Shown: positions 7,439 to 42,373 of the stretch, piece by piece
Position numbering within the stretch: the first letter of the stretch is position 1
Layout: every line of letters starts with the position of its first letter
Notes under the pieces: generated by a model
Databases searched by the model: none
What the model saw: the letters and a program-made list of their open reading frames with translations, nothing else
Told to the model about the DNA's origin: nothing
Source: Pristiophorus japonicus
Lineage: Eukaryota
Assembly: GCF_044704955.1 (NCBI RefSeq)
Contig: NW_027253893.1
Location: 1 to 64,000, forward strand
Reading direction: 5' to 3'
DNA length: 64,000 nucleotides
Program-made: the position numbers and the translations under genes

Positions 7439-7614
7439 CTGGGGGAAATGTCACAATTATTATTTCACCATTCCCCCGGCGGGATGTGGGCTTCGCTGGC
7501 AAAGGCCGGCATTTCTCAGTCCTCTCCGCAGGACGGTGAAGGGTCAACCACATTGGTGTGGGACGGGAGTCACGTGTGGCGTGGACAGGGCGAGGTCAGC
7601 AGGTCTCCTTCCCC

Positions 7615-7785
7615 AGTGTCAGCTGTGGCTCAGTGGGCAGCTCACTCACCTCAGAGTCACAAGGTTCAGAGTCTCTGAGTCACAAGGTGCTGGCTTCAAG
7701 TACCACTCCAGGAGCTTGAGCACAGAAATCTAGGCCGACACTCCCAGTGCAGTACTGAGGGAGTGCCGCACTGTCGGAGGAGCAG
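7615..7785 (+). mobile_element. tRNA-derived SINE 5' part (resembles recalled shark Deu-domain SINEs)
   Basis: A-box-like tggctcagtgg and B-box-like ttcaagtacc, then the body cttgagcac...atctaggccgacactcccagtgcagtactgagggag. Homologous to 59595-59716. Confidence 0.65.
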
Positions 7786-8830
7786 TACTGAGGGAGCACC
7801 GCACTGTCAGAGGGGCAGTACTGAGGGAGTGCCACACTGTCAGAGGGCAGTACTGAGGGAGTGCCGCACTGTCAGAGGGGCAGTACTGAGGGAGTGCCGC
7901 ACTGTCAGAGGGGCAGTACTGAGGGAGTACCACACTGTCGGAGGGTCAGCACTGAGGGAGCTCCGCACTGTCGGAGGGGCAGTACTGAGGGAGTGCCACA
8001 CTGTCGGAGCGGCAGTACTGAGGGAGCGCCACACTGTCGGAGGGGCAGTACTGAGGGAGCGCCGCACTGTCGGAGGGGCAGTACTGAGGGAGAGCCGCAC
8101 TGTCGGAGGGGCAGTACTGAGGGAGCGCCGCACTGTCGGAGGGGCAGTACTGAGGGAGTGCCGCACTGTCACAGGGGCAGTACTGAGGGAGTACCACACT
8201 GTCGGAGGGTCAGTACTGAGGGAGCTCCGCACTGTCGGAGGGGCAGTACTGAGGGAGTGCCACACTGTCGGAGGGGCAGTACTGAGGGAGCGCCGCACTG
8301 TCGGAGGGGCAGTACTGAGGGAGCGCCGCACTGTCGGAGGGTCAGTACTGAGGGAGCTCCGCACTGTCGGAGGGGCAGTACTGAGGGAGCGCCGCACTGT
8401 CGGAGGGTCAGTACTGAGGGAGCTCCGCACTGTCGGAGGGGCAGTACTGAGGGAGCGCCGCACTGTCGGAGGGGCAGTACTGAGGGAGCTCCGCACTGTC
8501 GGAGGGGCAGTACTGAGGGAGTGCCGCACTGTCAGAGGTGCAGTCCTGAGGGAGCTCCGCACTGTCAGAGGGGCAGTACTGAGGGAGCTCCGCACTGTCA
8601 GAGGGGCAGTACTGAGGGAGCTCCGCACTGTCGGAGGGGCAGTACTGAGGGAGTGCTGTCAGAGGGGCAGTACTGAGGGAGCGCCGCACTGTCGGAGGGG
8701 CAGTACTGAGGGAGTGCCACACTGTCGGAGGGGCAGTACTGAGGGAGTGCTGTCAGAGGGGCAGTACTGAGGGAGCGCCGCACTGTCAGAGGGGCAGTAC
8801 TGAGGGAGCTCCGCACTGTCAGAGGGGCAG
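7749..8830. repeat. 33-bp minisatellite cagtactgagggagcgccgcactgtcggagggg, ~33 copies
   Basis: Visible tandem copies, continuous with the SINE body. Confidence 0.92.
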
Positions 8831-9360: not shown

Positions 9361-12300
9361 CACAGTGTGCAATCAGTGATTCTCAAACCCTGGTGTAGTA
9401 TACACCGTGTATAGTCAGTGATTATCAAACCCAGGTTTAATATACACCGTGTATAATCAGTGATTATCAAACCCAGGTTTAATATACACCGTGTGCAATC
9501 AGTGATTCTCAAACCCAGGTGTAGTGTACACCGTGTATAGTCAGTGATTCTCAAACCCAGGTTTAATATACACTGTATATAGTCAGTGATTATCAAACCC
9601 AGGTTTAATATACACCGTGTATAATCAGTGATTATCAAACCCAGGTTTAATATACACCGTATATAGTCAGTGATTCTCAAACCCAGGTGTAATATACACT
9701 GTATATCGTCAGTGATTATCAAACCCAGGTTTAATATACACCATATATAGTCAGTGATTATCAAACCCAGGTGTAATATACACCGTATATAGTCAGTGAT
9801 TATCAAACCCAGGTTTAATATACACTGTATATAGTCAGTGATTATCAAACCCAGGTGTAATATACACTGTATATAGTCAGTGATTCTCAAACCCAGGTTT
9901 AATATACACTGTATATAGTCAGTGATTCTCAAACCCAGGTTTAATATACACTGTATATAGTCAGTGATTCTCAAACCCAGGTGTAATATACACCGTATAT
10001 AGTCAGTGATTATCAAACCCAGGTTTAATATACACTGTATATAGTCAGTGATTGTCAAACCCAGGTTTAATATACACCGTATATAGTCAGTGATTATCAA
10101 ACCCAGGTTTAATATACACTGTATATAGTCAGTGATTCTCAAACCCAGGTTTAATATACACTGTATATAGTCAGTGATTCTCAAACCCAGGTTTAATATA
10201 CATCGTATATAGTCAGTGATTATCAAACTCAGGTTTAATATACACCATATATAGTCAGTCATTATCAAACCCAGGTGTAATATACACCGTATATAGCCAG
10301 TGATTATCAAACCCAGGTTTAATATACACTGTATATAGTCAGTGATTATCAAACCCAGGTGTAATATACACTGTATATAGTCAGTGATTATCAAACCCAG
10401 GTGCAATATACACTGTATATAGTCAGTGATTATCAAACCCAGGTTTAATATACACTGTACATAGTCAGTGATTATCAAACCCAGGTTTAATATACACCAT
10501 ATATAGTCAGTGATTCTCAAACCCAGGTTTAATATACACCGTGTATAATCAGTGATTATCAAACCCAGGTTTAATATACACCGTATATAGTCAGTGATTC
10601 TCAAACCCAGGTTTAATATACACCGTGTATAGTCAGTGATTCTCAAATCCAGGTTTAATATACACCGTGTATAGTCAGTGATTCTCAAACCCAGGTTTAA
10701 TATACACCGTATATAGTCAGTGATTCTCAAACCCAGGTTTAATATACACCGTATATAGTCAGTGATTATCAAACCCAGGTTTAATATACACCGTATATAG
10801 TCAGTGATTATCAAACCCAGGTTTAATATACTCCGTGTATAATCAGTAATTATCAAACCCAGGTTTAATATACACCGTGTATAGTCAGTGATTATCAAAC
10901 CCAGGTTTAATATACACCGTATATAGTCAGTGATTATCAAACCCAGGTTTAATATACACTGTATATAATCAGTGATTATCAAACCCAGGTTTAATATACA
11001 CCGTATATAGTCAGTGATTATCAAACCCAGGTTTAATATACACCGTATATAGTCAGTGATTATCAAACCCAGGCTTAATATACATCGTATATAGTCAGTG
11101 ATTCTCAAACCCAGGTTTAATATACACTGTATATAGTCAGTGATTCTCAAACCCAGGTTTAATATACACCGTATATAGTCAGTGATTATCAAACCCAGGT
11201 TTAATATACACCATGTATAGTCAGTGATTATCAAACCCAGGTGTAATATACACCGTATATAGTCAGTGATTATCAAACCCAGGTTTAATATACACCATGT
11301 ATAGTCAGTGATTCTCAAACCCAGGTGTAATATACACCGTGTAATGTCAGTGATTCTCAAACCCAGGTGTAATATGCACCGTGTATAGTCAGTGATTATC
11401 AAACCCAGGTTTAATATACACCGTATATAGTCAGTGATTATCAAACCCAGGTTTAATATACACCGTGTATAGTCAGCGATTATCAAACCCAGGTTTAATA
11501 TACACTGTATACAGTCAGCGATTATCAAACCCAGGTTTAATATACACTGTATATAGTCAGCGATTATCAAACCCAGGTTTAATATACACCGTATATAGTC
11601 AGTGATTCTCAAACCCAGGTTTAATATACACCGTATATAGTCAGTGATTATCAAACCCAGGTTTAATATACACCATGTCTAGTCAGTGATTATCAAACTC
11701 AGGTTTTTTATACACCATGTATAGTCAGTGATTATCAAACCCAGGTTTAATATACACCGTATATAGTCAGTGATTATCAAACCCAGGTGTAATATACACC
11801 GTATATAGTCAGTGATTATCAAACCCAGGTTTAATATACACCATGTATAGTCAGTGATTCTCAAACCCAGGTGTAATATACACCGTGTAATGTCAGTGAT
11901 TCTCAAACCCAGGTGTAATATGCACCGTGTATAGTCAGTGATTATCAAACCCAGGTTTAATATACACCGTATATAGTCAGTGATTATCAAACCCAGGTTT
12001 AATATACACCGTGTATAGTCAGCGATTATCAAACCCAGGTTTAATATACACTGTATATAGTCAGTGATTATCAAACCCAGGTGTAATATACACTGTATAT
12101 AGTCAGTGATTATCAAACCCAGGTGCAATATACACTGTATATAGTCAGTGATTATCAAACCCAGGTTTAATATACACTGTACATAGTCAGTGATTATCAA
12201 ACCCAGGTTTAATATACACCATATATAGTCAGTGATTCTCAAACCCAGGTTTAATATACACCATATATAGTCAGTGATTATCAAACCCAGGTGTAATATA

Positions 12301-15300
12301 CACCGTATATAGTCAGTGATTATCAAACCCAGGTTTAATATACACTGTATATAGTCAGTGATTATCAAACCCAGGTGTAATATACACTGTATATAGTCAG
12401 TGATTCTCAAACCCAGGTTTAATATACACTGTATATAGTCAGTGATTCTCAAACCCAGGTTTAATATACACTGTATATAGTCAGTGATTCTCAAACCCAG
12501 GTGTAATATACACCGTATATAGTCAGTGATTATCAAACCCAGGTTTAATATACACTGTATATAGTCAGTGATTGTCAAACCCAGGTTTAATATACACCGT
12601 ATATAGTCAGTGATTATCAAACCCAGGTTTAATATACACTGTATATAGTCAGTGATTCTCAAACCCAGGTTTAATATACACTGTATATAGTCAGTGATTC
12701 TCAAACCCAGGTTTAATATACATCGTATATAGTCAGTGATTATCAAACTCAGGTTTAATATACACCATATATAGTCAGTCATTATCAAACCCAGGTGTAA
12801 TATACACCGTATATAGCCAGTGATTATCAAACCCAGGTTTAATATACACTGTATATAGTCAGTGATTATCAAACCCAGGTGTAATATACACTGTATATAG
12901 TCAGTGATTATCAAACCCAGGTGCAATATACACTGTATATAGTCAGTGATTATCAAACCCAGGTTTAATATACACTGTACATAGTCAGTGATTATCAAAC
13001 CCAGGTTTAATATACACCATATATAGTCAGTGATTCTCAAACCCAGGTTTAATATACACCGTGTATAATCAGTGATTATCAAACCCAGGTTTAATATACA
13101 CCGTATATAGTCAGTGATTCTCAAACCCAGGTTTAATATACACCGTGTATAGTCAGTGATTCTCAAATCCAGGTTTAATATACACCGTGTATAGTCAGTG
13201 ATTCTCAAACCCAGGTTTAATATACACCGTATATAGTCAGTGATTCTCAAACCCAGGTTTAATATACACCGTATATAGTCAGTGATTATCAAACCCAGGT
13301 TTAATATACACCGTATATAGTCAGTGATTATCAAACCCAGGTTTAATATACTCCGTGTATAATCAGTGATTATCAAACCCAGGTTTAATATACACCGTGT
13401 ATAGTCAGTGATTATCAAACCCAGGTTTAATATACACCGTATATAGTCAGTGATTATCAAACCCAGGTTTAATATACACTGTTCTAATCAGTGATTATCA
13501 AACCCAGGTTTAATATACACCGTATATAGTCAGTGATTATCAAACCCAGGTTTAATATACACCGTATATAGTCAGTGATTATCAAACCCAGGCTTAATAT
13601 ACATCGTATATAGTCAGTGATTCTCAAACCCAGGTTTAATATACACTGTATATAGTCAGTGATTCTCAAACCCAGGTTTAATATACACCGTATATAGTCA
13701 GTGATTATCAAACCCAGGTTTAATATACACCATGTATAGTCAGTGATTATCAAACCCAGGTGTAATATACACCGTATATAGTCAGTGATTATCAAACCCA
13801 GGTTTAATATACACCATGTATAGTCAGTGATTCTCAAACCCAGGTGTAATATACACCGTGTAATGTCAGTGATTCTCAAACCCAGGTGTAATATGCACCG
13901 TGTATAGTCAGTGATTATCAAACCCAGGTTTAATATACACCGTATATAGTCAGTGATTATCAAACCCAGGTTTAATATACACCGTGTATAGTCAGCGATT
14001 ATCAAACCCAGGTTTAATATACACTGTATACAGTCAGCGATTATCAAACCCAGGTTTAATATACACTGTATATAGTCAGCGATTATCAAACCCAGGTTTA
14101 ATATACACCGTATATAGTCAGTGATTCTCAAACCCAGGTTTAATATACACCGTATATAGTCAGTGATTATCAAACCCAGGTTTAATATACACCATGTCTA
14201 GTCAGTGATTATCAAACTCAGGTTTTTTATACACCATGTATAGTCAGTGATTATCAAACCCAGGTTTAATATACACCGTATATAGTCAGTGATTATCAAA
14301 CCCAGGTGTAATATACACCGTATATAGTCAGTGATTATCAAACCCAGGTTTAATATACACCATGTATAGTCAGTGATTCTCAAACCCAGGTGTAATATAC
14401 ACCGTGTAATGTCAGTGATTCTCAAACCCAGGTGTAATATGCACCGTGTATAGTCAGTGATTATCAAACCCAGGTTTAATATACACCGTATATAGTCAGT
14501 GATTATCAAACCCAGGTTTAATATACACCGTGTATAGTCAGCGATTATCAAACCCAGGTTTAATATACACTGTATATAGTCAGTGATTATCAAACCCAGG
14601 TGTAATATACACTGTATATAGTCAGTGATTATCAAACCCAGGTGCAATATACACTGTATATAGTCAGTGATTATCAAACCCAGGTTTAATATACACTGTA
14701 CATAGTCAGTGATTATCAAACCCAGGTTTAATATACACCATATATAGTCAGTGATTCTCAAACCCAGGTTTAATATACACCGTGTATAATCAGTGATTAT
14801 CAAACCCAGGTTTAATATACACCGTATATAGTCAGTGATTCTCAAACCCAGGTTTAATATACACCGTGTATAGTCAGTGATTCTCAAATCCAGGTTTAAT
14901 ATACACCGTGTATAGTCAGTGATTCTCAAACCCAGGTTTAATATACACCGTATATAGTCAGTGATTCTCAAACCCAGGTTTAATATACACCGTATATAGT
15001 CAGTGATTATCAAACCCAGGTTTAATATACACCGTGTATAGTCAGTGATTATCAAACCCAGGTTTAATATACACCGTATATAGTCAGTGATTATCAAACC
15101 CAGGTTTAATATACACCGTATATAGTCAGTGATTATCAAACCCAGGCTTAATATACATCGTATATAGTCAGTGATTCTCAAACCCAGGTTTAATATACAC
15201 TGTATATAGTCAGTGATTCTCAAACCCAGGTTTAATATACACCGTATATAGTCAGTGATTATCAAACCCAGGTTTAATATACACCATGTATAGTCAGTGA

Positions 15301-18300
15301 TTATCAAACCCAGGTGTAATATACACCGTATATAGTCAGTGATTATCAAACCCAGGTTTAATATACACCATGTATAGTCAGTGATTCTCAAACCCAGGTG
15401 TAATATACACCGTGTAATGTCAGTGATTCTCAAACCCAGGTGTAATATGCACCGTGTATAGTCAGTGATTATCAAACCCAGGTTTAATATACACCGTATA
15501 TAGTCAGTGATTATCAAACCCAGGTTTAATATACACCGTGTATAGTCAGCGATTATCAAACCCAGGTTTAATATACACTGTATACAGTCAGCGATTATCA
15601 AACCCAGGTTTAATATACACTGTATATAGTCAGCGATTATCAAACCCAGGTTTAATATACACCGTATATAGTCAGTGATTCTCAAACCCAGGTTTAATAT
15701 ACACCGTATATAGTCAGTGATTATCAAACCCAGGTTTAATATACACCATGTCTAGTCAGTGATTATCAAACTCAGGTTTTTTATACACCATGTATAGTCA
15801 GTGATTATCAAACCCAGGTTTAATATACACCGTATATAGTCAGTGATTATCAAACCCAGGTGTAATATACACCGTATATAGTCAGTGATTATCAAACCCA
15901 GGTTTAATATACACTGTATATAGTCAGTGATTATCAAACCCAGGTGTAATATACACTGTATATAGTCAGTGATTCTCAAACCCAGGTTTAATATACACTG
16001 TATATAGTCAGTGATTCTCAAACCCAGGTTTAATATACACTGTATATAGTCAGTGATTCTCAAACCCAGGTGTAATATACACCGTATATAGTCAGTGATT
16101 ATCAAACCCAGGTTTAATATACACTGTATATAGTCAGTGATTGTCAAACCCAGGTTTAATATACACCGTATATAGTCAGTGATTATCAAACCCAGGTTTA
16201 ATATACACTGTATATAGTCAGTGATTCTCAAACCCAGGTTTAATATACACTGTATATAGTCAGTGATTCTCAAACCCAGGTTTAATATACATCGTATATA
16301 GTCAGTGATTATCAAACTCAGGTTTAATATACACCATATATAGTCAGTCATTATCAAACCCAGGTGTAATATACACCGTATATAGCCAGTGATTATCAAA
16401 CCCAGGTTTAATATACACTGTATATAGTCAGTGATTATCAAACCCAGGTGTAATATACACTGTATATAGTCAGTGATTATCAAACCCAGGTGCAATATAC
16501 ACTGTATATAGTCAGTGATTATCAAACCCAGGTTTAATATACACTGTACATAGTCAGTGATTATCAAACCCAGGTTTAATATACACCATATATAGTCAGT
16601 GATTCTCAAACCCAGGTTTAATATACACCGTGTATAATCAGTGATTATCAAACCCAGGTTTAATATACACCGTATATAGTCAGTGATTCTCAAACCCAGG
16701 TTTAATATACACCGTGTATAGTCAGTGATTCTCAAATCCAGGTTTAATATACACCGTGTATAGTCAGTGATTCTCAAACCCAGGTTTAATATACACCGTA
16801 TATAGTCAGTGATTCTCAAACCCAGGTTTAATATACACCGTATATAGTCAGTGATTATCAAACCCAGGTTTAATATACACCGTATATAGTCAGTGATTAT
16901 CAAACCCAGGTTTAATATACTCCGTGTATAATCAGTGATTATCAAACCCAGGTTTAATATACACCGTGTATAGTCAGTGATTATCAAACCCAGGTTTAAT
17001 ATACACCGTATATAGTCAGTGATTATCAAACCCAGGTTTAATATACACTGTATATAATCAGTGATTATCAAACCCAGGTTTAATATACACCGTATATAGT
17101 CAGTGATTATCAAACCCAGGTTTAATATACACCGTATATAGTCAGTGATTATCAAACCCAGGCTTAATATACATCGTATATAGTCAGTGATTCTCAAACC
17201 CAGGTTTAATATACACTGTATATAGTCAGTGATTCTCAAACCCAGGTTTAATATACACCGTATATAGTCAGTGATTATCAAACCCAGGTTTAATATACAC
17301 CATGTATAGTCAGTGATTATCAAACCCAGGTGTAATATACACCGTATATAGTCAGTGATTATCAAACCCAGGTTTAATATACACCATGTATAGTCAGTGA
17401 TTCTCAAACCCAGGTGTAATATACACCGTGTAATGTCAGTGATTCTCAAACCCAGGTGTAATATGCACCGTGTATAGTCAGTGATTATCAAACCCAGGTT
17501 TAATATACACCGTATATAGTCAGTGATTATCAAACCCAGGTTTAATATACACCGTGTATAGTCAGCGATTATCAAACCCAGGTTTAATATACACTGTATA
17601 CAGTCAGCGATTATCAAACCCAGGTTTAATATACACTGTATATAGTCAGCGATTATCAAACCCAGGTTTAATATACACCGTATATAGTCAGTGATTCTCA
17701 AACCCAGGTTTAATATACACCGTATATAGTCAGTGATTATCAAACCCAGGTTTAATATACACCATGTCTAGTCAGTGATTATCAAACTCAGGTTTTTTAT
17801 ACACCATGTATAGTCAGTGATTATCAAACCCAGGTTTAATATACACCGTATATAGTCAGTGATTATCAAACCCAGGTGTAATATACACCGTATATAGTCA
17901 GTGATTATCAAACCCAGGTTTAATATACACCATGTATAGTCAGTGATTCTCAAACCCAGGTGTAATATACACCGTGTAATGTCAGTGATTCTCAAACCCA
18001 GGTGTAATATGCACCGTGTATAGTCAGTGATTATCAAACCCAGGTTTAATATACACCGTATATAGTCAGTGATTATCAAACCCAGGTTTAATATACACCG
18101 TGTATAGTCAGCGATTATCAAACCCAGGTTTAATATACACTGTATATAGTCAGTGATTATCAAACCCAGGTGTAATATACACTGTATATAGTCAGTGATT
18201 ATCAAACCCAGGTGCAATATACACTGTATATAGTCAGTGATTATCAAACCCAGGTTTAATATACACTGTACATAGTCAGTGATTATCAAACCCAGGTTTA

Positions 18301-21300
18301 ATATACACCATATATAGTCAGTGATTCTCAAACCCAGGTTTAATATACACCGTGTATAATCAGTGATTATCAAACCCAGGTTTAATATACACCGTATATA
18401 GTCAGTGATTCTCAAACCCAGGTTTAATATACACCGTGTATAGTCAGTGATTCTCAAATCCAGGTTTAATATACACCGTGTATAGTCAGTGATTCTCAAA
18501 CCCAGGTTTAATATACACCGTATATAGTCAGTGATTCTCAAACCCAGGTTTAATATACACCGTATATAGTCAGTGATTATCAAACCCAGGTTTAATATAC
18601 ACCGTGTATAGTCAGTGATTATCAAACCCAGGTTTAATATACACCGTATATAGTCAGTGATTATCAAACCCAGGTTTAATATACACCGTATATAGTCAGT
18701 GATTATCAAACCCAGGCTTAATATACATCGTATATAGTCAGTGATTCTCAAACCCAGGTTTAATATACACTGTATATAGTCAGTGATTCTCAAACCCAGG
18801 TTTAATATACACCGTATATAGTCAGTGATTATCAAACCCAGGTTTAATATACACCATGTATAGTCAGTGATTATCAAACCCAGGTGTAATATACACCGTA
18901 TATAGTCAGTGATTATCAAACCCAGGTTTAATATACACCATGTATAGTCAGTGATTCTCAAACCCAGGTGTAATATACACCGTGTAATGTCAGTGATTCT
19001 CAAACCCAGGTGTAATATGCACCGTGTATAGTCAGTGATTATCAAACCCAGGTTTAATATACACCGTATATAGTCAGTGATTATCAAACCCAGGTTTAAT
19101 ATACACCGTGTATAGTCAGAGATTATCAAACCCAGGTTTAATATACACTGTATACAGTCAGCGATTATCAAACCCAGGTTTAATATACACTGTATATAGT
19201 CAGCGATTATCAAACCCAGGTTTAATATACACCGTATATAGTCAGTGATTCTCAAACCCAGGTTTAATATACACCGTATATAGTCAGTGATTATCAAACC
19301 CAGGTTTAATATACACCATGTCTAGTCAGTGATTATCAAACTCAGGTTTTTTATACACCATGTATAGTCAGTGATTATCAAACCCAGGTTTAATATACAC
19401 CGTATATAATCAGTGATTATCAAACCCAGGTTTAATATACACCGTATATAGTCAGTGATTATCAAACCCAGGTTTAATATACACCGTATATAGTCAGTGA
19501 TTATCAAACCCAGGCTTAATATACATCGTATATAGTCAGTGATTCTCAAACCCAGGTTTAATATACACTGTATATAGTCAGTGATTATCAAACCCAGGTT
19601 TAATATACACCGTATATAGTCAGTGATTATCAAACCCAGGTTTAATATACACCATGTATAGTCAGTGATTATCAAACCCAGGTGTAATATACACCGTATA
19701 TAGTCAGTGATTATCAAACCCAGGTTTAATATACACCATGTATAGTCAGTGATTCTCAAACCCAGGTGTAATATACACCGTGTAATGTCAGTGATTCTCA
19801 AACCCAGGTGTAATATGCACCGTGTATAGTCAGTGATTATCAAACCCAGGTTTAATATACACCGTATATAGTCAGTGATTATCAAACCCAGGTTTAATAT
19901 ACACCGTGTATAGTCAGCGATTATCAAACCCAGGTTTAATATACACTGTATACAGTCAGCGATTATCAAACCCAGGTTTAATATACACTGTATATAGTCA
20001 GCGATTATCAAACCCAGGTTTAATATACACCGTATATAGTCAGTGATTCTCAAACCCAGGTTTAATATACACCGTATATAGTCAGTGATTATCAAACCCA
20101 GGTTTAATATACACCATGTCTAGTCAGTGATTATCAAACCCAGGTTTAATATACACCGTGTATAGTCAGTGATTATCAAACCCAGGTTTAATATACACCG
20201 TATATAGTCAGTGATTATCAAACCCAGGTTTAATATACACCGTATATAGTCAGTGATTATCAAACCCAGGCTTAATATACATCGTATATAGTCAGTGATT
20301 CTCAAACCCAGGTTTAATATACACTGTATATAGTCAGTGATTCTCAAACCCAGGTTTAATATACACCGTATATAGTCAGTGATTATCAAACCCAGGTTTA
20401 ATATACACCATGTATAGTCAGTGATTATCAAACCCAGGTGTAATATACACCGTATATAGTCAGTGATTATCAAACCCAGGTTTAATATACACCATGTATA
20501 GTCAGTGATTCTCAAACCCAGGTGTAATATACACCGTGTAATGTCAGTGATTCTCAAACCCAGGTGTAATATGCACCGTGTATAGTCAGTGATTATCAAA
20601 CCCAGGTTTAATATACACCGTATATAGTCAGTGATTATCAAACCCAGGTTTAATATACACCGTGTATAGTCAGAGATTATCAAACCCAGGTTTAATATAC
20701 ACTGTATACAGTCAGCGATTATCAAACCCAGGTTTAATATACACTGTATATAGTCAGCGATTATCAAACCCAGGTTTAATATACACCGTATATAGTCAGT
20801 GATTCTCAAACCCAGGTTTAATATACACCGTATATAGTCAGTGATTATCAAACCCAGGTTTAATATACACCATGTCTAGTCAGTGATTATCAAACTCAGG
20901 TTTTTTATACACCATGTATAGTCAGTGATTATCAAACCCAGGTTTAATATACACCGTATATAATCAGTGATTATCAAACCCAGGTTTAATATACACCGTA
21001 TATAGTCAGTGATTATCAAACCCAGGTTTAATATACACCGTATATAGTCAGTGATTATCAAACCCAGGCTTAATATACATCGTATATAGTCAGTGATTCT
21101 CAAACCCAGGTTTAATATACACTGTATATAGTCAGTGGTTATCAAACCCAGGTTTAATATACACCGTATATAGTCAGTGATTATCAAACCCAGGTTTAAT
21201 ATACACCATGTATAGTCAGTGATTATCAAACCCAGGTGTAATATACACCGTATATAGTCAGTGATTATCAAACCCAGGTTTAATATACACCATGTATAGT

Positions 21301-24300: not shown

Positions 24301-27300
24301 GGTTTAATATACACCGTATATAGTCAGTGATTATCAAACCCAGGTTTAATATACACTGTATATAGTCAGTGATTATCAAACCCAGGTTTAATATACACCG
24401 TATATAGTCAGTGATTATCAAACCCAGTTGTAATATACACCGTATATAGTCAGTGATTATCAAACCCAGGTTTAATATACACCGTATATAGTCAGTGATT
24501 ATCAAACCCAGGTTTAATATACACTGTATATAGTCAGTGATTATCAAACCCAGGTTTAATATACACCGTATATAGTCAGTGATTATCAAACCCAGGTGCA
24601 ATATACACCGTATATAGTCAGTGATTATCAAACCCAGGTTTAATATACACTGTATATAGTCAGTGATTCTCAAACCCAGGTTTAATATACACCGTATATA
24701 GTCAGTGATTATCAAACCCAGGTTTAATATACACTGTATATAGTCAGCGATTATCAAACCCAGGTTTAATATACACTGTATATAGTCAGTGATTATCAAA
24801 CCCAGGTTTAATATACACCGTATATAGTCAGTGATTGTCAAACCCAGGTTTAATATACACCGTATATAGTCAATGATTATCAAACCCAGGTTTAATATAC
24901 ACTGTATATAGTCAGTGATTCTCAAACCCAGGTTTAATATACACTGTATATAGTCAGTGATTCTCAAACCCAGGTTTAATATACATCGTATATAGTCAGT
25001 GATTATCAAACTCAGGTTTAATATACACCATATATAGTCAGTCATTATCAAACCCAGGTGTAATATACACCGTATATAGTCAGTGATTATCAAACCCAGG
25101 TTTAATATACACTGTATATAGTCAGTGATTATCAAACCCAGGTGTAATATACACTGTATGTAGTCAGTGATTATCAAACCCAGGTGCAATATACACTGTA
25201 TATAGTCAGTGATTATCAAACCCAGGTTTAATATACACTGTACATAGTCAGTGATTATCAAACCCAGGTTTAATATACACCATATATAGTCAGTGATTCT
25301 CAAACCCAGGTTCAATATACACCGTGTATAATCAGTGATTATCAAACCCAGGTTTAATATACACCGTATATAGTCAGTGATTATCAAACCCAGGTTTAAT
25401 ATACACGTGTATAATCAGTGATTATCAAACCCAGGTTTAATATACACCGTGTATAGTCAGTGATTATCAAACCCAGGTTAATATACACCGTATATAATCA
25501 GTGATTATCAAACCCAGGTGTAATATACACTGTATATAGTCAGTGATTATCAAACCCTGGTGTAATATACACCGTATATAATCAGTGATTCTCAAACCCT
25601 GGCTTAATATACACCATATAAAAGTCAGTGATTATCAAACCCAGGTTTACTATACACCGTATATAGTCAGTGATTATCAAACCCAGGTTTAATATACACC
25701 GTATATAGTCAGTGATTATCAAACCCAGGTTTAATATACACTGTATATAGTCAGTGATTATCAAACCCAGGTTTAATATACACAGTGTATAGTCAGTGAT
25801 TATCAAACCCAGGTTTAATATACACCGTATGTAGTCAGTGATTATCAAACCCAGGTTTAATATACACCGTGTATAGTCAGTGATTATCAAACCCAGGTTT
25901 AATATACACCATGTATAGTCAGTGATTATCAAACCCAGGTTTAATATACACCGTGTATACAGTGATTATCAAACCCAGGTTTAATATACACCGTGTATTA
26001 TCAGTGATTATCAAACCGAGGTTTAATATACACTGTATATAGTCAGTGATTATCAAACCCAGGTTTAATACACACCGTATATAGTCAGTGATTCTCACAC
26101 CCAGGTTTAATATACACCGTATGTAGTCAGCGATTATCAAACCCAGGTTTTTTATACACCGTATATAGTCAGTGATTATCAAACCCAGGTTTAATATACA
26201 CCGTATATAGTCAGTGATTATCAAACCCAGGTTTAATATACACCGTATATAGTCAGTGATTATCAAACCCAGGTTTAATATACACTGTATATAGTCAGTG
26301 ATGATCAAACCCAGGTTTAATATACACCGTATATAGTCAGTGATTATCAAACCCAGGTGTAATATACACCGTATGTAGTCAGTGATTATCAAACCCAGGT
26401 TTAATATACACCGTATATAGTCAGTGATAATCAAACCCAGGTTTAATATACACTGTATATAGTCAGTGATTATCAAACCCAGGTTTAATATACACTGTAT
26501 ATAGTCAGTGATTCTCAAACCCAGGTTTAATATACATCGTATATAGTCAGTGATTATCAAACTCAGGTTTAATATACACCATATATAGTCAGTCATTATC
26601 AAACCCAGGTGTAATATACACCGTTTTTAGTCAGTGATTATCAAACCCAGGTTTAATATACACTGTATATAGTCAGTGATTATCAAACCCAGGTGTAATA
26701 TACACTGTATGTAGTCAGTGATTATCAAACCCAGGTGCAATATACACTGTATATAGTCAGTGATTATCAAACCCAGGTTTAATATACACTGTACATAGTC
26801 AGTGATTATCAAACCCAGGTTTAATATACACCATATATAGTCAGTGATTCTCAAACCCAGGTTCAATATACACCGTGTATAATCAGTGATTATCAAACCC
26901 AGGTTTAATATACACCGTATATAGTCAGTGATTATCAAACCCAGGTTTAATATACACGTGTATAATCAGTGATTATCAAACCCAGGTTTAATATACACCG
27001 TGTATAGTCAGTGATTATCAAACCCAGGTTAATATACACCGTATATAATCAGTGATTATCAAACCCAGGTTTAATATACACCGTATATAGTCAGTGATTA
27101 TCAAACCCAGGTGTAATATACACCGTATGTAGTCAGTGATTATCAAACCCAGGTTTAATATACACCATATATAGTCAGTGATAATCAAACCCAGGTTTAA
27201 TATACACTGTATATAGTCAGTGATTATCAAACCCAGGTGTAATATACACCGTATATAGTCAGTGATTATCAAACCCAGGTTTAATATACACCATATATAG

Positions 27301-33300: not shown

Positions 33301-36300
33301 GTCAGTGATTATCAAACCCAGGTTTAATATACACCGTATATAGTCAGTGATTATCAAACCCAGGTTTAATATACACCGTATGTAGTCAGTGATTATCAAA
33401 CCCAGGTTTAATATACACCGTATATAGTCAGTGATAATCAAACCCAGGTTTAATATACACTGTATATAGTCAGTGATTATCAAACCCAGGTGTAATATAC
33501 ACCGTATATAGTCAGTGATTATCAAACCCAGGTTTAATATACACCATATATAGTCAGTGATTATCAAACCCAGGTTTAATATACACTGTATATAGTCAGT
33601 GATTCTCAAACCCAGGTTTAATATACACTGTATATAGTCAGTGATTCTCAAACCCAGGTTTAATATACACCGTATATAGTCAGTGATAATCAAACCCAGG
33701 TTTAATATACACTGTATATAGTCAGTGATTATCAAACCCAGGTTTAATATACACCGTATATAGTCAGTGATTATCAAACCCAGGTGTAATATACACCGTA
33801 TATAGTCAGTGATTCTCAAACCCAGGTTTAATATACATCGTATATAGTCAGTGATTATCAAACTCAGGTTTAATATACACCATATATAGTCAGTCATTAT
33901 CAAACCCAGGTGTAATATACACCGTATATAGTCAGTGATTATCAAACCCAGGTTTAATATACACTGTATATAGTCAGTGATTATCAAACCCAGGTGTAAT
34001 ATACACTGTATGTAGTCAGTGATTATCAAACCCAGGTGCAATATACACTGTATATAGTCAGTGATTATCAAACCCAGGTTTAATATACACTGTACATAGT
34101 CAGTGATTATCAAACCCAGGTTTAATATACACCATATATAGTCAGTGATTCTCAAACCCAGGTTTAATATACACCATGTATAATCAGTGATTATCAAACC
34201 CAGGTTTAATATACACCGTATATAGTCAGTGATTATCAAACCCAGGTTTAATATACACCGTGTATAATCAGTGATTATCAAACCCAGGTTTAATATACAC
34301 CGTGTATAGTCAGTGATTATCAAACCCAGGTTAATATACACCGTATATAATCAGTGATTATCAAACCCAGGTGTAATATACACTGTATATAGTCAGTGAT
34401 TATCAAACCCTGGTGTAATATACACCGTATGTAGTCAGTGATTATCAAACCCAGGTTTAATATACACTGTATATAGTCAGTGATAATCAAACCCAGGTTT
34501 AATATACACTGTATATAGTCAGTGATTATCAAACCCAGGTTTAATATACACCGTATATAGTCAGTGATTATCAAACCCAGGTGTAATATACACCGTATAT
34601 AGTCAGTGATTATCAAACCCAGGTTTAATATACACCATATATAGTCAGTGATTATCAAACCCAGGTGTAATATACACCGTATATAGTCAGTATGATTATC
34701 AAACCCAGGTTTAATATACACTGTATATAGTCAGTGATTATCAAACCCAGGTTTAATATTCACCGTATATAGTCAGTGATTATCAAACCCAGGTGTAATA
34801 TACACCGTATGTAGTCAGTGATTATCAAACCCAGGTTTAATATACACCGTATATAGTCAGTGATAATCAAACCCAGGTTTAATATACACTGTATATAGTC
34901 AGTGATTATCAAACCCAGGTTTAATATACACCGTATATAGTCAGTGATTATCAAACCCAGGTGTAATATACACCGTATATAGTCAGTGATTATCAAACCC
35001 AGGTTTAATATACACCATATATAGTCAGTGATTATCAAACCCAGGTGTAATATACACCGTATATAGTCAGTGATTATCAAACCCAGGTTTAATATACACC
35101 GTGTATAGTCAGTGATTATCAAACCCAGGTTTAATATATACCGTATATAGTCAGTGATTATCAAACCCAGGTTTAATATACACCGTATATAGTCAGTGAT
35201 TATCAAACCCAGGTTTAATATACACCGTATATAGTCAGTGATTATCAAACCCAGGTTTAATATACACCATGTATAGTCAGTGATTATCAAACCCAGGTTT
35301 AATATACACCGTGTATAGTCAGTGATTATCAAACCCAGGTTTAATATACACCGTATATAGTCAGTGATTATCAAACCCAGGTTTAATATACACTGTATAT
35401 AGTCAGTGATTCTCAAACCCAGGTTTAATATACACCGTATATAGTCAGTGATTATCAAACCCAGGTTTAATATACACTGTATATAGTCAGCGATTATCAA
35501 ACCCAGGTTTAATATACACTGTATATAGTCAGTGATTATCAAACCCAGGTTTAATATACACCGTATATAGTCAGTGATTGTCAAACCCAGGTTTAATATA
35601 CACCGTATATAGTCAATGATTATCAAACCCAGGTTTAATATACACTGTATATAGTCAGTGATTCTCAAACCCAGGTTTAATATACACTGTATATAGTCAG
35701 TGATTCTCAAACCCAGGTTTAATATACATCGTATATAGTCAGTGATTATCAAACTCAGGTTTAATATACACCATATATAGTCAGTCATTATCAAACCCAG
35801 GTGTAATATACACCGTATATAGTCAGTGATTATCAAACCCAGGTTTAATATACACTGTATATAGTCAGTGATTATCAAACCCAGGTGTAAGATACACTGT
35901 ATGTAGTCAGTGATTATCAAACCCAGGTGCAATATACACTGTATATAGTCAGTGATTATCAAACCCAGGTTTAATATACACTGTACATAGTCAGTGATTA
36001 TCAAACCCAGGTTTAATATACACCGTATATAATCAGTGATTCTCAAACCCTGGCTTAATATACACCATATAAAAGTCAGTGATTATCAAACCCAGGTTTA
36101 ATATACACCATATATAGTCAGTGATTCTCAAACCCAGGTTTAATATACACCGTGTATAATCAGTGATTATCAAACCCAGGTTTAATATACACCGTATATA
36201 GTCAGTGATTATCAAACCCAGGTTTAATATACACCGTGTATAATCAGTGATTATCAAACCCAGGTTTAATATACACCGTGTATAGTCAGTGATTATCAAA

Positions 36301-39300
36301 CCCAGGTTAATATACACCGTATATAATCAGTGATTATCAAACCCAGGTGTAATATACACTGTATATAGTCAGTGATTATCAAACCCTGGTGTAATATACA
36401 CCGTATGTAGTCAGTTATTATCAAACCCAGGTTTAATATACACCGTATATAGTCAGTGATAATCAAACCCAGGTTTAATATACACTGTATATAGTCAGTG
36501 ATTATCAAACCCAGGTTTAATATACACCGTATATAGTCAGTGATTATCAAACCCAGGTGTAATATACACCGTATATAGTCAGTGATTATCAAACCCAGGT
36601 TTAATATACACCATATATAGTCAGTGATTATCAAACCCAGGTGTAATATACACCGTATATAGTCAGTATGATTATCAAACCCAGGTTTAATATACACTGT
36701 ATATAGTCAGTGATTATCAAACCCAGGTTTAATATTCACCGTATATAGTCAGTGATTATCAAACCCAGGTGTAATATACACCGTATGTAGTCAGTGATTA
36801 TCAAACCCAGGTTTAATATACACCGTATATAGTCAGTGATAATCAAACCCAGGTTTAATATACACTGTATATAGTCAGTGATTATCAAACCCAGGTTTAA
36901 TATACACCGTATATAGTCAGTGATTATCAAACCCAGGTGTAATGTACACCGTATATAGTCAGTGATTATCAAACCCAGGTTTAATATACACCATATATAG
37001 TCAGTGATTATCAAACCCAGGTGTAATATACACCGTATATAGTCAGTGATTATCAAACCCAGGTTTAATATACACCGTGTATAGTCAGTGATTATCAAAC
37101 CCAGGTTTAATATATACCGTATATAGTCAGTGATTATCAAACCCAGGTTTAATATACACCGTATATAGTCAGTGATTATCAAACCCAGGTTTAATATACA
37201 CCGTATATAGTCAGTGATTATCAAACCCAGGTTTAATATACACCATGTATAGTCAGTGATTATCAAACCCAGGTTTAATATACACCGTGTATAGTCAGTG
37301 ATTATCAAACCCAGGTTTAATATACACCGTATATCGTCAGTGATTATCAAACCCAGGTTTAATATACACTGTATATAGTCAGTGATTCTCAAACCCAGGT
37401 TTAATATACACCGTATATAGTCAGTGATTATCAAACCCAGGTTTAATATACACTGTATATAGTCAGCGATTATCAAACCCAGGTTTAATATACACTGTAT
37501 ATAGTCAGTGATTATCAAACCCAGGTTTAATATACACCGTATATAGTCAGTGATTGTCAAACCCAGGTTTAATATACACCGTATATAGTCAATGATTATC
37601 AAACCCAGGTTTAATATACACTGTATATAGTCAGTGATTCTCAAACCCAGGTTTAATATACACTGTATATAGTCAGTGATTCTCAAACCCAGGTTTAATA
37701 TACATCGTATATAGTCAGTGATTATCAAACTCAGGTTTAATATACACCATATATAGTCAGTCATTATCAAACCCAGGTGTAATATACACCGTATATAGTC
37801 AGTGATTATCAAACCCAGGTTTAATATACACTGTATATAGTCAGTGATTATCAAACCCAGGTGTAAGATACACTGTATGTAGTCAGTGATTATCAAACCC
37901 AGGTGCAATATACACTGTATATAGTCAGTGATTATCAAACCCAGGTTTAATATACACTGTACATAGTCAGTGATTATCAAACCCAGGTTTAATATACACC
38001 ATATATAGTCAGTGATTCTCAAACCCAGGTTTAATATACACCGTGTATAATCAGTGATTATCAAACCCAGGTTTAATATACACTGTATATAGTCAGTGAT
38101 TATCAAACCCAGGTTTAATATACACCGTGTATAATCAGTGATTATCAAACCCAGGTTTAATATACACCGTGTATAGTCAGTGATTATCAAACCCAGGTTA
38201 ATATACACCGTATATAATCAGTGATTATCAAACCCAGGTGTAATATACACTGTATATAGTCAGTGATTATCAAACCCTGGTGTAATATACACCGTATATA
38301 ATCAGTGATTCTCAAACCCTGGCTTAATATACACCATATAAAAGTCAGTGATTATCAAACCCAGGTTTAATATACACCGTATATAGTCAGTGATTATCAA
38401 ACCCAGGTTTAATATACACCGGATATAGTCAGTGATTATCAAACCCAGGTTTAATATACACTGTATATAGTCAGTGATTCTCAAACCCAGGTTTAATATA
38501 CGCCATATATAGTGAGTGATTATCAAACCCAGGTTTAATATACACCGTATATAGTCAGTGCTTATCAAACCCAGGTTTAACATACACCGTGTATAGTCAG
38601 TGATTATCAAACCCAGGTTTAATACACACCGTATATAGTCAGTGATTCTCACACCCAGGTTTAATATACACCGTATATAGACAGTGATTATCAAACCCAG
38701 GTTTAATATACACTGTATATAGTCAGTGATGATCAAACCCAGGTTTAATATACACCGTATATAGTCAGTGATTATCAAACCCAGGTGTAATATACACCGT
38801 ATGTAGTCAGTGATTATCAAACCCAGGTTTAATATACACCGTATATAGTCAGTGATAATCAAACCCAGGTTTAATATACACTGTATATAGTCAGTGATTA
38901 TCAAACCCAGGTTTAATATACACCGTATATAGTCAGTGATTATCAAATCCAGGTGTAATATACACCGTATATAGTCAGTGATTATCAAACCCAGGTTTAA
39001 TATACACCATATATAGTCAGTGATTATCAAACCCAGGTGTAATATACACCGTATATAGTCAGTATGATTATCAAACCCAGTTTTAATATACACTGTATAT
39101 AGTCAGTGATTATCAAACCCAGGTTTAATATACACCGTATATAGTCAGTGATTATCAAACCCAGGTGTAATATACACCGTATGTAGTCAGTGATTATCAA
39201 ACCCAGGTTTAATATACACCGTATATAGTCAGTGATAATCAAACCCAGGTTTAATATACACTGTATATAGTCAGTGATTATCAAACCCAGGTTTAATATA

Positions 39301-42300
39301 CACCGTATATAGTCAGTGATTATTAAACCCAGGTGTAATATACACCGTATATAGTCAGTGATTATCAAACCCAGGTTTAATATACACCGTATATAGTCAG
39401 TGATTATCAAACCCAGGTTTAATATACACTGTATATAGTCAGTGATTATCAAACCCAGGTTTAATATACACCGTATATAGTCAGTGATTATCAAACCCAG
39501 GTGCAATATACACCGTATATAGTCAGTGATTATCAAACCCAGGTTTAATATACACTGTATATAGTCAGTGATTCTCAAACCCAGGTTTAATATACACCGT
39601 ATATAGTCAGCGATTATCAAACCCAGGTTTAATATACACTGTATATAGTCAGTGATTATCAAACCCAGGTTTAATATACACCGTATATAGTCAGTGATTG
39701 TCAAACCCAGGTTTAATATACACCGTATATAGTCAATGATTATCAAACCCAGGTTTAATATACACTGTATATAGTCAGTGATTCTCAAACCCAGGTTTAA
39801 TATACACTGTATATAGTCAGTGATTCTCAAACCCAGGTTTAATATACATCGTATATAGTCAGTGATTATCAAACTCAGGTTTAATATACACCATATATAG
39901 TCAGTCATTATCAAACCCAGGTGTAATATACACCGTATATAGTCAGTGATTATCAAACCCAGGTTTAATATACACTGTATATAGTCAGTGATTATCAAAC
40001 CCAGGTGTAATATACACTGTATGTAGTCAGTGATTATCAAACCCAGGTGCAATATACACTGTATATAGTCAGTGATTATCAAACCCAGGTTTAATATACA
40101 CTGTACATAGTCAGTGATTATCAAACCCAGGTTTAATATACACCATATATAGTCAGTGATTCTCAAACCCAGGTTTAATATACACCGTGTATAATCAGTG
40201 ATTATCAAACCCAGGTTTAATATACACCGTATATAGTCAGTGATTATCAAACCCAGGTTTAATATACACCGTGTATAATCAGTGATTATCAAACCCAGGT
40301 TTAATATACACCGTGTATAGTCAGTGATTATCAAACCCAGGTTAATATACACCGTATATAATCAGTGATTATCAAACCCAGGTGTAATATACACTGTATA
40401 TAGTCAGTGATTATCAAACCCTGGTGTAATATACACCGTATATAATCAGTGATTCTCAAACCCTGGCTTAATATACACCATATAAAAGTCAGTGATTATC
40501 AAACCCAGGTTTAATATACACCGTATATAGTCAGTGATTATCAAACCCAGGTTTAATATACACCGTATATAGTCAGTGATTATCAAACCCAGGTTTAATA
40601 TACGCCATATATAGTGAGTGATTATCAAACCCAGGTTTAATATACACAGTGTATAGTCAGTGATTATCAAACCCAGGTTTAATATACACCGTATGTAGTC
40701 AGTGATTATCAAACCCAGGTTTAATATACACCGTGTATAGTCAGTGATTATCAAACCCAGGTTTAATATACACCGTATATAGTCAGTGCTTATCAAACCC
40801 AGGTTTAACATACACCGTGTATAGTCAGTGATTATCAAACCCAGGTTTAATATACACCGTATATAGTCAGTGCTTATTAAACCCAGGTTTAATATACACC
40901 GTGTATAGTCAGTGATTATCAAACCCAGGTTTAATATACACCATGTATAGTCAGTGATTATCAAACCCAGGTTTAATATACACCGTGTATACAGTGATTA
41001 TCAAACCCAGGTTTAATATACACCGTGTATTATCAGTGATTATCAAACCCAGGTTTAATATACACTGTATATAGTCAGTGATTATCAAACCCAGGTTTAA
41101 TACACACCGTATATAGTCAGTGATTCTCACACCCAGGTTTAATATACACCGTATGTAGTCAGCGATTATCAAACCCAGGTTTTTTATACACCGTATATAG
41201 TCAGTGATTATCAAACCCAGGTTTAATATACACCGTATATAGTCAGTGATTATCAAACCCAGGTTTAATATACACCGTATATAGTCAGTGATTATCAAAC
41301 CCAGGTTTAATATACACTGTATATAGTCAGTGATGATCAAACCCAGGTTTAATATACACCGTATATAGTCAGTGATTATCAAACCCAGGTGTAATATACA
41401 CCGTATGTAGTCAGTGATTATCAAACCCAGGTTTAATATACACCGTATATAGTCAGTGATAATCAAACCCAGGTTTAATATACACTGTATATAGTCAGTG
41501 ATTATCAAACCCAGGTTTAATATACACCGTATATAGTCAGTGATTATCAAACCCAGGTGTAATATACACCGTATATAGTCAGTGATTATCAAACCCAGGT
41601 TTAATATACACCATATATAGTCAGTGATTATCAAACCCAGGTGTAATATACACCGTATATAGTCAGTATGATTATCAAACCCAGGTTTAATATACACTGT
41701 ATATAGTCAGTGATTATCAAACCCAGGTTTAATATACACCGTATATAGTCAGTGATTATCAAACCCAGGTGTAATATACACCGTATATAGTCAGTGATTA
41801 TCAAACCCAGGTTTAATATACACCGTATATAGTCAGTGATAATCAAACCCAGGTTTAATATACACTGTATATAGTCAGTGATTATCAAACCCAGGTTTAA
41901 TATACACCGTATATAGTCAGTGATTATCAAACCCAGGTGTAATATACACCGTATATAGTCAGTGATTATCAAACCCAGGTTTAATATACACCATATATAG
42001 TCAGTGATTATCAAACCCAGGTGTAATATACACCGTATATAGTCAGTGATTATCAAACCCAGGTTTAATATACACCGTGTATAGTCAGTGATTATCAAAC
42101 CCAGGTTTAATATACACTGTATATAGTCAGTGATTATCAAACCCAGGTTTAATATACACCGTATATAGTCAGTGATTATCAAACCCAGGTTTAATATACA
42201 CCGTATATAGTCAGTGATTATCAAACCCAGGTTTAATATACACCATGTATAGTCAGTGATTATCAAACCCAGGTTTAATATACACCGTGTATAGTCAGTG

Positions 42301-42373
42301 ATTATCAAACCCAGGTTTAATATACACCGTATATAGTCAGTGATTATCAAACCAAGGTTGAGTCTGCACGGTG
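9361..42373. repeat. 42-bp AT-rich satellite, ~785 copies (~33 kb), consensus caccgtatatagtcagtgattatcaaacccaggtttaatata, with higher-order repeats
   Basis: Uninterrupted tandem array; the ORF track shows 14-aa periodicity. Confidence 0.98.

What the first reader, a model, noticed from the sequence alone, without database searches (positions are those of the whole stretch)
9361..42373. The 42-bp satellite unit is laid out like a recombination signal sequence (heptamer-13-nonamer), ~785 times inside an Ig locus
Seen: the unit parses as CAC(C/T)GT(A/G) + 13 bp (TATAGTCAGTGAT) + T(A/C)TCAAACC + 13 bp. The array starts on a perfect CACAGTG (9361-9367, then 13 bp, then TCTCAAACC) and ends in phase on CACGGTG (42367-42373). 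Perfect CACAGTG units recur at 25781, 31321, 32872 and 40645, and 11-bp-spacer variants occur (e.g. ~25949). The minus strand also reads CACTGAC-13-TATTAAACC. Known: the consensus RSS is CACAGTG-12/23-ACAAAAACC; CAC and the nonamer A-tract matter most, and off-by-one spacers work inefficiently. Shark isotype switching occurs without recognised S regions. Inference (speculative): the array may descend from an RSS, or act as a massed cryptic RAG substrate or decoy that allows C-region deletion or exchange between clusters.
Basis: partly seen in the sequence, partly recalled or inferred. Interest (0 to 1): 0.7.

Follow-up and report, generated by a model that had tools for sequence, protein, structure and literature searches.

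The report
Runaway satellite in shark antibody intron
A 42-letter repeat sits in the same intron of every IgW antibody gene copy found in this genome (20 to 77 units in six copies) and has ballooned to about 786 units in one broken copy; its likeness to an antibody-gene cutting signal is weak and likely accidental, and its core likely comes from the end of a jumping gene.

Summary
The layout is real, but the RSS reading is weak. The array is an intronic VNTR lying between the short secretory tail and CH3 in 7 of 7 IgW constant regions found. Six hold 20-77 units; this one holds 786. The host cluster has an out-of-frame joined VDJ and has lost CH3-CH4, with the junction about 530 bp from the array. 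Other minisatellites in these clusters run away the same way.

Against 50 real RSS from this genome, none has a 13-bp spacer. The commonest unit scores 0.3 bits (real 10.4-25.9), and 24% of shuffles match it. Only the edge unit reaches the real range. The four internal CACAGTG units are one variant copied by block duplication, and the heptamer is the most variable part of the unit.

The stable core matches, at 14 of 15 bases, the terminal inverted repeat of an abundant DNA transposon with 8-bp target duplications (hAT-like; 0 of 20,000 shuffles). The 'nonamer' is the back half of that repeat. Low-level RAG cutting remains possible: the heptamers are competent and mouse gamma-satellite is a precedent. 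The scan noted satellite-filled introns elsewhere in this genome.

The parts
9361..42373 (+). 42-bp tandem array, 786 units, 33.0 kb, built by block duplications of up to 62 identical units in a row
9361..9389 (+). Edge unit, the best RSS-like parse (CACAGTG-13-TCTCAAACC; 14.1 bits, low end of the real range); J-like orientation relative to the minus-strand gene
9374..9388 (+). 15-mer matching 14 of 15 bases of the terminal inverted repeat of a dispersed DNA transposon family (hAT-like by its 8-bp target duplications); the stable core of every unit
42354..42373 (+). Terminal partial unit ending on CACGGTG; resembles the 16 bp left of the array start, as expected for the short direct repeats that seed a minisatellite
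   Evidence: mechanism from PMC6947457 passage
8822..8830 (.). Approximate junction of a 6.4-7.6-kb deletion of CH3 and CH4, joining the 33-bp array to a GGGGCA-type repeat through a short shared motif; about 530 bp from the satellite and not at a CAC
7749..8830 (+). 33-bp minisatellite (33 copies), left partner of the deletion
7118..7440 (-). IgW CH5 exon, open
5140..5540 (-). IgW CH6 exon with long-form secretory tail
280..445 (-). IgW transmembrane exon (approximate limits)
45520..45770 (-). Short-form cysteine-rich secretory tail exon (approximate limits)
   Evidence: form described in PMC4279169 passage
47030..47335 (-). IgW CH2 exon, open
58690..59010 (-). IgW CH1 exon, open
48218..54593 (+). 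39-bp minisatellite (161 copies here, 33-468 in paralogs): control for runaway growth
54734..56166 (+). 24-bp minisatellite (60 copies here, 16 to about 930 in paralogs): control for runaway growth

Best explanation
This is an intronic tandem repeat shared by all seven IgW constant regions found, likely neutral and likely seeded by a leftover end of a hAT-type DNA transposon, which has expanded to 786 units in a cluster that is likely a pseudogene. Shown: location, restriction to IgW, copy numbers, block duplications, the out-of-frame VDJ join and the loss of CH3-CH4, the weak RSS score, and the 14-of-15 match to a transposon terminal repeat. [quoted passage not shown] The RSS layout is a by-product: a CAC-containing 7-mer happens to lie 6 bp before the transposon end, so the end's first 7 bases fill the spacer and its bases 8-15 supply the 'nonamer'. 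Odds: neutral VNTR with incidental RSS likeness about 0.75; transposon-end origin of the core about 0.6.
For: Same flanks, 96-100% identical, at 7 loci. 7 of 7 close CH2 matches coincide with them. Units: 20, 38, 44, 53, 63, 77, 786. 601 of 601 exact 20-mer hits are accounted for (487 here plus 114 in six paralogs). Other arrays run away in other clusters: 39-bp 33-468 copies, 24-bp 16 to about 930, 56-bp at least 58 kb, 34-bp at least 898 copies. RSS matrix from 50 real RSS: modal unit 0.3 bits against 10.4-25.9 (leave-one-out); 1 of 786 units in the real range with relaxed spacers, 0 of 786 with 12/22/23; flanking DNA holds 11 sites per kb as good as the modal unit. Mean match to consensus falls from about 8.0 of 13 in six paralogs to 7.3 here, so growth favoured poorer signals. 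Heptamer columns: 0 of 7 invariant, minor-allele frequency 0.11-0.12 against 0.03 in the spacer. Of 734 units starting CAC, positions 4-5 read CG 421, TG 210, CA 98, AG 5, the pattern of CpG decay. The four internal CACAGTG units are one variant in near-identical neighbourhoods. Transposon end: 11 of 915 hits of the 16-mer lie outside the arrays; in 6 of the 10 fetched, shared homology starts exactly at the motif. The family has 886 first-look candidates. 8 of 34 copies showed a partner end with a 6-8 of 8 target duplication within 1.6 kb. The consensus 15-mer occurs 427 times against 5 for the reversed control. The edge unit scores 24.3 bits (24 of 25 members score 17-27.4), 0 of 20,000 shuffles reach it, and no other site reaches 12 bits in 464 kb of these loci.
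Against: The transposon family was found by searching with the unit's own motif, so the shuffle test is not blind. A rough correction (3.6e-6 per family, times an assumed few hundred families) leaves about 1e-3. The match is only 15 bp: there is no partner end in the loci, no homology to the element body and no family whose end continues like the unit (0 hits). The 8-bp linker lacks the central TA seen in about 80% of the family's target sites. The edge unit is a fair cryptic RSS (1.5% of shuffles) and its perfect heptamer is kept in 5 of 7 loci. The conservation contrast is biased, because units were anchored on the nonamer. Giant arrays also occur in clusters with intact RSS, so pseudogene status is not needed for growth. 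No functional assay was possible.
Confidence: 0.75

Rival explanations
1. Incidental RAG substrate (compatible with the best explanation): some units are cut at a low rate in developing B cells, without a selected role, as for mouse gamma-satellite.
For: The heptamer+2 sequences reach 0.07-0.20% in SARP-seq against 1.14% for CACAGTGAT and about 0.024% expected per sequence (PMC9723617 supplement). A 13-bp spacer keeps about 11% joining (PMC7753069 passage citing Akamatsu 1994). A gamma-satellite signal with a CACTGTA heptamer and a poor nonamer recombined at 0.6% (PMC2193808). The array lies in a locus that RAG visits.
Against: Those assays used consensus nonamers and 12-bp spacers. The penalties here stack: 13-bp spacer, T at nonamer position 3 where 49 of 50 real RSS have A, and A at position 2 in most units where 49 of 50 have C. 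CpG decay suggests methylated DNA (inference). This cluster has no 23-RSS left.
Confidence: 0.3
2. Functional deleting element: the J-oriented, 12-like signals pair with the V or D1 23-RSS and delete J, CH1 and CH2, silencing an IgW cluster as kde/RS silences Ig kappa.
For: Orientation and spacer class would allow a deletional join to the V 23-RSS seen in five paralogs. The array is in 7 of 7 IgW clusters and was not seen in the stretches of 2 IgNAR clusters examined. The best unit is the first one. kde/IRS precedent (PMC2711918 passages).
Against: No 12-bp spacer with a good heptamer among 1,081 units. Drift is away from the consensus. The biggest array is in the cluster without partners. Presence in all clusters follows from recent duplication.
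Confidence: 0.04
3. The unit descends from a real RSS (a lost D or J segment, or a RAG-inserted signal-end fragment).
For: The edge unit has a perfect heptamer and 6 of 9 nonamer matches. IgNAR D nonamers here also end in CAAACC. Sharks rearrange Ig genes in the germ line (PMC5192425 passage).
Against: No similarity to 30 V loci or 3 IgW D-J regions (best E 1.2). No J motif or paired D heptamer beside 9361. No 5-bp target duplication around the array (read). 0 of 50 real RSS have a 13-bp spacer. The transposon-end match is much stronger.
Confidence: 0.07
4. AID-targeted switch-like region for C-region exchange between clusters.
For: Repetitive, intronic and shared between clusters. [quoted passage not shown]
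Against: AGCT 0 per kb; WGCW 1.2 per kb against about 18 in neighbouring DNA; WRCY below background. It lies after CH2, so it cannot swap a whole C region.
Confidence: 0.03
5. The 33-kb length is an assembly inflation of a short VNTR.
For: Exact repeats of up to 62 units. No read data spanning the array could be examined.
Against: 93 distinct unit types and a gradient of variants along the array. Similar giants of other units occur in sister clusters.
Confidence: 0.07

Closest known systems
Cryptic RSS in mouse gamma (major) satellite (Cowell et al. 2003, PMC2193808; abstract, passages and section 19 read)
   Same: A tandem repeat whose unit parses as heptamer-spacer-nonamer with a CACTGTA-type heptamer. 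The authors already proposed descent from the RAG transposon and a harmless sink for RAG breaks.
   Different: There the signal has a canonical 23-bp spacer, passes RIC and was shown to be cut. It is genome-wide. Here the spacer is 13 bp, the score is at background, nothing is shown to be cut, and the array is confined to one intron of IgW.
Transposon-derived mini/satellites seeded between short direct repeats (Haber and Louis model as summarised in PMC6947457; passages read)
   Same: Locus-specific array that begins and ends on a short imperfect direct repeat, varies in copy number among paralogs, grows by block duplication, and holds a piece of a transposable element.
   Different: Only a 15-bp terminal repeat is recognisable, with no element body. 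The host is a multicopy antibody gene.
Ig kappa deleting element (kde/RS) and intronic RS (PMC2711918; passages read)
   Same: An isolated RSS-like site among or beyond the constant exons, oriented so that a join to V would delete part of the locus.
   Different: kde/IRS are single sites with demonstrated rearrangement. Here there are many degenerate sites, an off-length spacer and no evidence of joining.
Germline-joined and domain-deleted IgW clusters of cartilaginous fish (PMC5192425, PMC4279169; passages read)
   Same: The host cluster is VDJ-joined, and 2-, 4-, 6- and 8-domain IgW forms are known.
   Different: The reviews ascribe the 4-domain forms to splicing; this cluster has lost CH3-CH4 in its DNA.

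Membership tests
Physiological RSS (12/23) | CAC at heptamer positions 1-3 | tested here: met
   734 of 785 units start with CAC
Physiological RSS (12/23) | Permissive heptamer positions 4-7 (CACNRYR) | tested here: met
   The five commonest heptamers fit; published activity 6-17% of CACAGTGAT (rule from PMC9723617)
Physiological RSS (12/23) | Spacer of 12 or 22/23 bp | tested here: not met
   987 of 1,081 units have 13 bp, 37 have 11, 5 have 12 (all with poor heptamers), 6 have 14, 46 have no CAC in range; 48 of 50 real RSS have 12/22/23 and none 13
Physiological RSS (12/23) | Nonamer within the range of real RSS of this genome | tested here: not met
   Modal unit 0.3 bits against 10.4-25.9; 1 of 786 in range. 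AAACC at positions 5-9 is present.
Physiological RSS (12/23) | Flanks a V, D or J coding segment | tested here: not met
   No J motif or D pair beside 9361
Physiological RSS (12/23) | RIC score above threshold; RAG cleavage | not testable with these tools
   RIC model parameters not held; the unit's nonamers are absent from the supplement searched (PMC12711392)
kde/IRS-type deleting element | Orientation allows a deletional join to V | tested here: met
   J-like orientation; V 23-RSS in 5 paralogs; none left in this cluster
kde/IRS-type deleting element | Joints at the heptamer in lymphocytes or germ line | tested here: inconclusive
   No joint at 9361 in contigs of 4 runs (contigs drop rare variants); the genomic CH3-CH4 deletion ends about 530 bp away
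AID switch region | Dense AGCT/WGCW motifs | tested here: not met
   0 AGCT and 1.2 WGCW per kb
Locus-specific minisatellite/VNTR grown to satellite size | Head-to-tail units with variable copy number at homologous sites | tested here: met
   20-786 units between near-identical flanks
Locus-specific minisatellite/VNTR grown to satellite size | Short direct repeats at both ends | tested here: met
   CACAGTG and CACGGTG in phase, with similar bases before each
hAT-type transposon remnant | Match to the terminal inverted repeat of a family with 8-bp target duplications | tested here: met
   14 of 15; 8 of 34 family copies show both ends and a 6-8 of 8 duplication. The hAT and Buster/Charlie labels are recalled, not from a call.
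hAT-type transposon remnant | Partner end, element body and matching target duplication | tested here: not met
   No second end at 12 bits or more in 464 kb; no body homology; the inverted arm in edge units is at chance level, 8 of 16

The most novel reading that the evidence does not exclude
A transposon-end-derived intronic repeat has been captured as an IgW-deleting element: its first, perfect-heptamer unit and the tandem copies behind it pair with the V 23-RSS, let RAG delete J-CH1-CH2, and so silence individual IgW clusters, a shark counterpart of the kappa-deleting element.
Probability: 0.04. Interest if true: 0.8.

Novelty: new member of a known kind. Interest (0 to 1): 0.25.

Why it matters
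As it stands it is a clean within-genome series (20 to 786 units at one paralogous site) of a minisatellite becoming a satellite, with a plausible DNA-transposon seed. It also warns that a hAT-like end preceded by a CAC mimics an RSS. It shows that IgW clusters in this genome are stretched by different runaway arrays (V to D1 is about 10 kb in two clusters and about 78 and 105 kb in two others), which may bear on how often each cluster rearranges. If the deleting-element case were true it would give sharks a RAG-based way to silence one of many independent heavy-chain clusters, which bears on the open question of heavy-chain exclusion in cluster-type loci.

Tried and rejected
1. RAG-inserted signal-end fragment (inward-facing 12- and 23-RSS at the two ends): rejected. 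The minus-strand 23 parse scores only 7.9 bits, there is no 5-bp target duplication, and an unexpanded site of about 49 bp is too short for two RSS. 2. Unit as a 34-bp mini-transposon (two 16-bp arms) plus an 8-bp target duplication: inconclusive. The arms match 12-13 of 16 in derived units (41 and 10 of 3,000 shuffles) but 8 of 16 in the edge unit (2,987 of 3,000), and the linker lacks the family's central TA. 3. Hairpin-driven expansion: a three-unit fold looked strong against non-periodic shuffles (z -3.2) but not against periodic ones (41 of 300); rejected as evidence. 4. Donor family whose end continues like the unit: 0 hits. 5. Orthologous intron in other organisms: runs of three other organisms covered only short dispersed-repeat parts of the left flank and none of the array start; no cover is no evidence. 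6. No RNA holder was listed; no joint at 9361 in contigs; contig depth cannot give a copy number, so whether the 786-unit allele is shared by other individuals is open. 7. The primary IgW switching paper (Zhang, Du Pasquier and Hsu 2013) was not held; only review passages were seen, so where its switch junctions map was not checked. 8. Literature: 'satellite + recombination signal + heptamer + shark' gave one paper; 'IgW + cluster + tandem repeats + genome assembly + shark' gave none. The library lacks most subscription papers. 9. The nonamer paper's supplement did not list the unit's nonamers; its full 11,201-nonamer data, not seen, may bear on the nonamer claim. 10. Rows dropped: 4 of 29 transposon copies lacked a recognisable end and were left out of the end matrix, and two copies picked by the motif were excluded. 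RSS were collected only if they began CAC, had G at position 5 and had at most 2 heptamer mismatches, which favours the consensus; paralogous RSS are not independent.
Full report
Observation. The array is as described: 42-bp period, 9361-42373, 786 units, 756 of 785 spacings exact. The parse, the five CACAGTG units, the 11-bp variants and the in-phase end are all in the sequence.

Setting. On the minus strand lie IgW CH1 (58690-59010), CH2 (47030-47335), the short secretory tail (45520-45770), the array, CH5 (7118-7440), CH6 with the long tail, and a transmembrane exon. IgW, and IgNAR elsewhere in the genome, imply a cartilaginous fish (inference). Five paralogs with sequence there carry CH3 and CH4 between CH5 and the array. 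This cluster lacks them. CH5 to left flank is 1,409 bp here against 7,835-8,987 bp in four paralogs. The junction near 8822-8830 joins a 33-bp array to a GGGGCA-type repeat, about 530 bp from the first CAC. Upstream, at contig position about 80.7 kb, V and J are already joined out of frame, and no RSS within 3 mismatches of the consensus remains in 124 kb. An earlier scan note says the same of the join. The cluster is therefore likely a pseudogene as an antigen receptor.

Distribution. A DNA search found the array on 7 contigs. Both flanks match at the same 7 places, at 96-100%, as do 7 close CH2 matches. The two weaker CH2 matches are IgNAR-type clusters with no trace of the unit in the 30 kb fetched of each. 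Unit counts are 20, 38, 44, 53, 63, 77 and 786. All 601 exact 20-mer hits in 5.9 Gb are accounted for by these arrays. Six have distinct V segments; the seventh, on a short contig, may be an allele. Runaway growth is the local rule: the 39-bp array has 33-468 copies, the 24-bp array 16 to about 930, and arrays of 56, 34, 47 and 44 bp reach at least 58, 30, 14 and 6 kb in one cluster or another.

Is it an RSS? In favour: 734 of 785 units start CAC. The common heptamers fit the CACNRYR rule and show 0.07-0.20% in SARP-seq, against 1.14% for CACAGTGAT (PMC9723617, passages and supplement rows). A 13-bp spacer keeps about 11% (PMC7753069 passage). The edge unit scores 14.1 bits, reached by 1.5% of shuffles. 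Against: of 50 distinct RSS collected beside V, D and J segments in 30 V loci and 4 IgW D-J regions, 48 have 12/22/23-bp spacers and none has 13. The modal unit scores 0.3 bits against 10.4-25.9; 24% of 4,000 dinucleotide shuffles equal it; flanking DNA has 11 such sites per kb; 1 of 786 units is in the real range. By plain match count 8-11% of shuffles and 18% of 3,873 background pieces equal the modal unit, and a 62-bp repeat in the same cluster scores higher than it. Only 5 of 1,081 units have a 12-bp spacer, all with poor heptamers; mean match falls from about 8.0 in paralogs to 7.3 here; the heptamer is the most variable part (the nonamer side of that contrast is biased by anchoring). The four internal CACAGTG units are one variant copied in blocks, and positions 4-5 show CpG decay on both strands. 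The unit resembles no real RSS region (best E 1.2). It is not switch-like (0 AGCT per kb).

Where the core comes from. A 16-mer from the stable core has 915 hits, 904 in the arrays. In 6 of the 10 outside hits fetched, shared homology begins exactly at the motif, and 7 of 10 have TA at positions 4-5 of the preceding 8 bp (read by eye). They belong to a dispersed family (886 first-look candidates, 40 scored) with terminal inverted repeats; 8 of 34 copies showed the partner end and a 6-8 of 8 target duplication. Short inverted ends with 8-bp duplications mark hAT elements (established knowledge; the Buster/Charlie label is recalled, and the listing was not read further). The consensus end occurs 427 times against 5 for the control. 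The edge unit matches it at 14 of 15 bases, 24.3 bits, 0 of 20,000 shuffles, and nothing else in 464 kb of these loci reaches 12 bits. The test is not blind, the match is short, and the partner end, body and target signature are missing, so I put this origin at about 0.6. It accounts for the layout: the 13-bp 'spacer' is 6 linker bases plus the first 7 of the transposon end, and the 'nonamer' is mostly the rest of that end.

Mechanism. Duplication between short direct repeats (model summarised in PMC6947457) explains why the array starts and ends in phase on similar 7-mers. Cluster duplication spread it, and block duplications of up to 62 identical units grew this copy. Contigs of two runs of the same organism (library type not on record) cover CH5 exactly exon to exon with paralog alleles, and one joins the CH4 end to CH5 and CH5 to CH6. 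Long-form IgW is thus made from sister clusters, which implies that their array intron is spliced out (inference; the CH2-CH3 joint itself was not seen).

Known comparators. Mouse gamma-satellite carries RAG-cut cryptic signals, and its authors already proposed both RSS-related ancestry and a decoy role (PMC2193808), so even a positive RAG result would be a new case of a known phenomenon. The functional analogue would be kde/IRS (PMC2711918). Reviews attribute shark isotype switching to AID and keep RAG rearrangement within clusters (PMC4279169; PMC5192425). Two searches found no report of this repeat.

Verdict. Real feature, ordinary class: a locus-specific intronic VNTR grown to satellite size, probably around a transposon end. 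Incidental low-level RAG cutting about 0.3; functional deleting element about 0.04. Interest 0.25.

Noticed in passing
G000:C3281 about 80,670-80,970 (beyond the window), L075: Out-of-frame VDJ join: V end plus 3 bases plus trimmed J; no D or RSS left.
   Followed up: yes
window 8822-8830: Genomic loss of CH3-CH4 through a repeat-to-repeat microhomology, which would give a 4-domain IgW at DNA level rather than by splicing.
   Followed up: partly
G000:C3281 95,539 to at least 154,000: 56-bp satellite of at least 58 kb upstream of the joined V.
   Followed up: no
G000:C3019 (V 147,348; D1 about 69,200) and C2079 (V 209,979; D1 about 105,150): V-to-D1 distances of about 78 and 105 kb, beginning with a 44/45-bp satellite, against about 10 kb in C13 and C3915 and about 0.4 kb in IgM-type clusters; may affect rearrangement.
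   Followed up: no
IgW J segments in C13, C3915, C3019, C2079: The J 23-RSS has a poor nonamer (4 of 9 to consensus), and a D-type nonamer lies 40 bp from the heptamer.
   Followed up: no
G000:C2079 near 104,300-104,750: The D2 3' RSS seen in other IgW clusters was not found here; D2 may be fused or altered.
   Followed up: no
L092-L099 (G000:C23): A set of near-identical IgM-type clusters with D already joined to J (V 23-RSS, one 12-RSS, then J).
   Followed up: no
window 48080-48200: Short unique stretch between the 39-bp array and a LINE piece, conserved at 97-99% in all paralogs; a possible hinge-like exon, untested.
   Followed up: no
L111-L144: Abundant hAT-like DNA transposon family, 0.6-1.6 kb between ends, 8-bp target duplications with central TA.
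   Followed up: partly
window 2760-4530 and 59760-61290: Two near-identical LINE (CR1-like, recalled) fragments in IgW introns.
   Followed up: no
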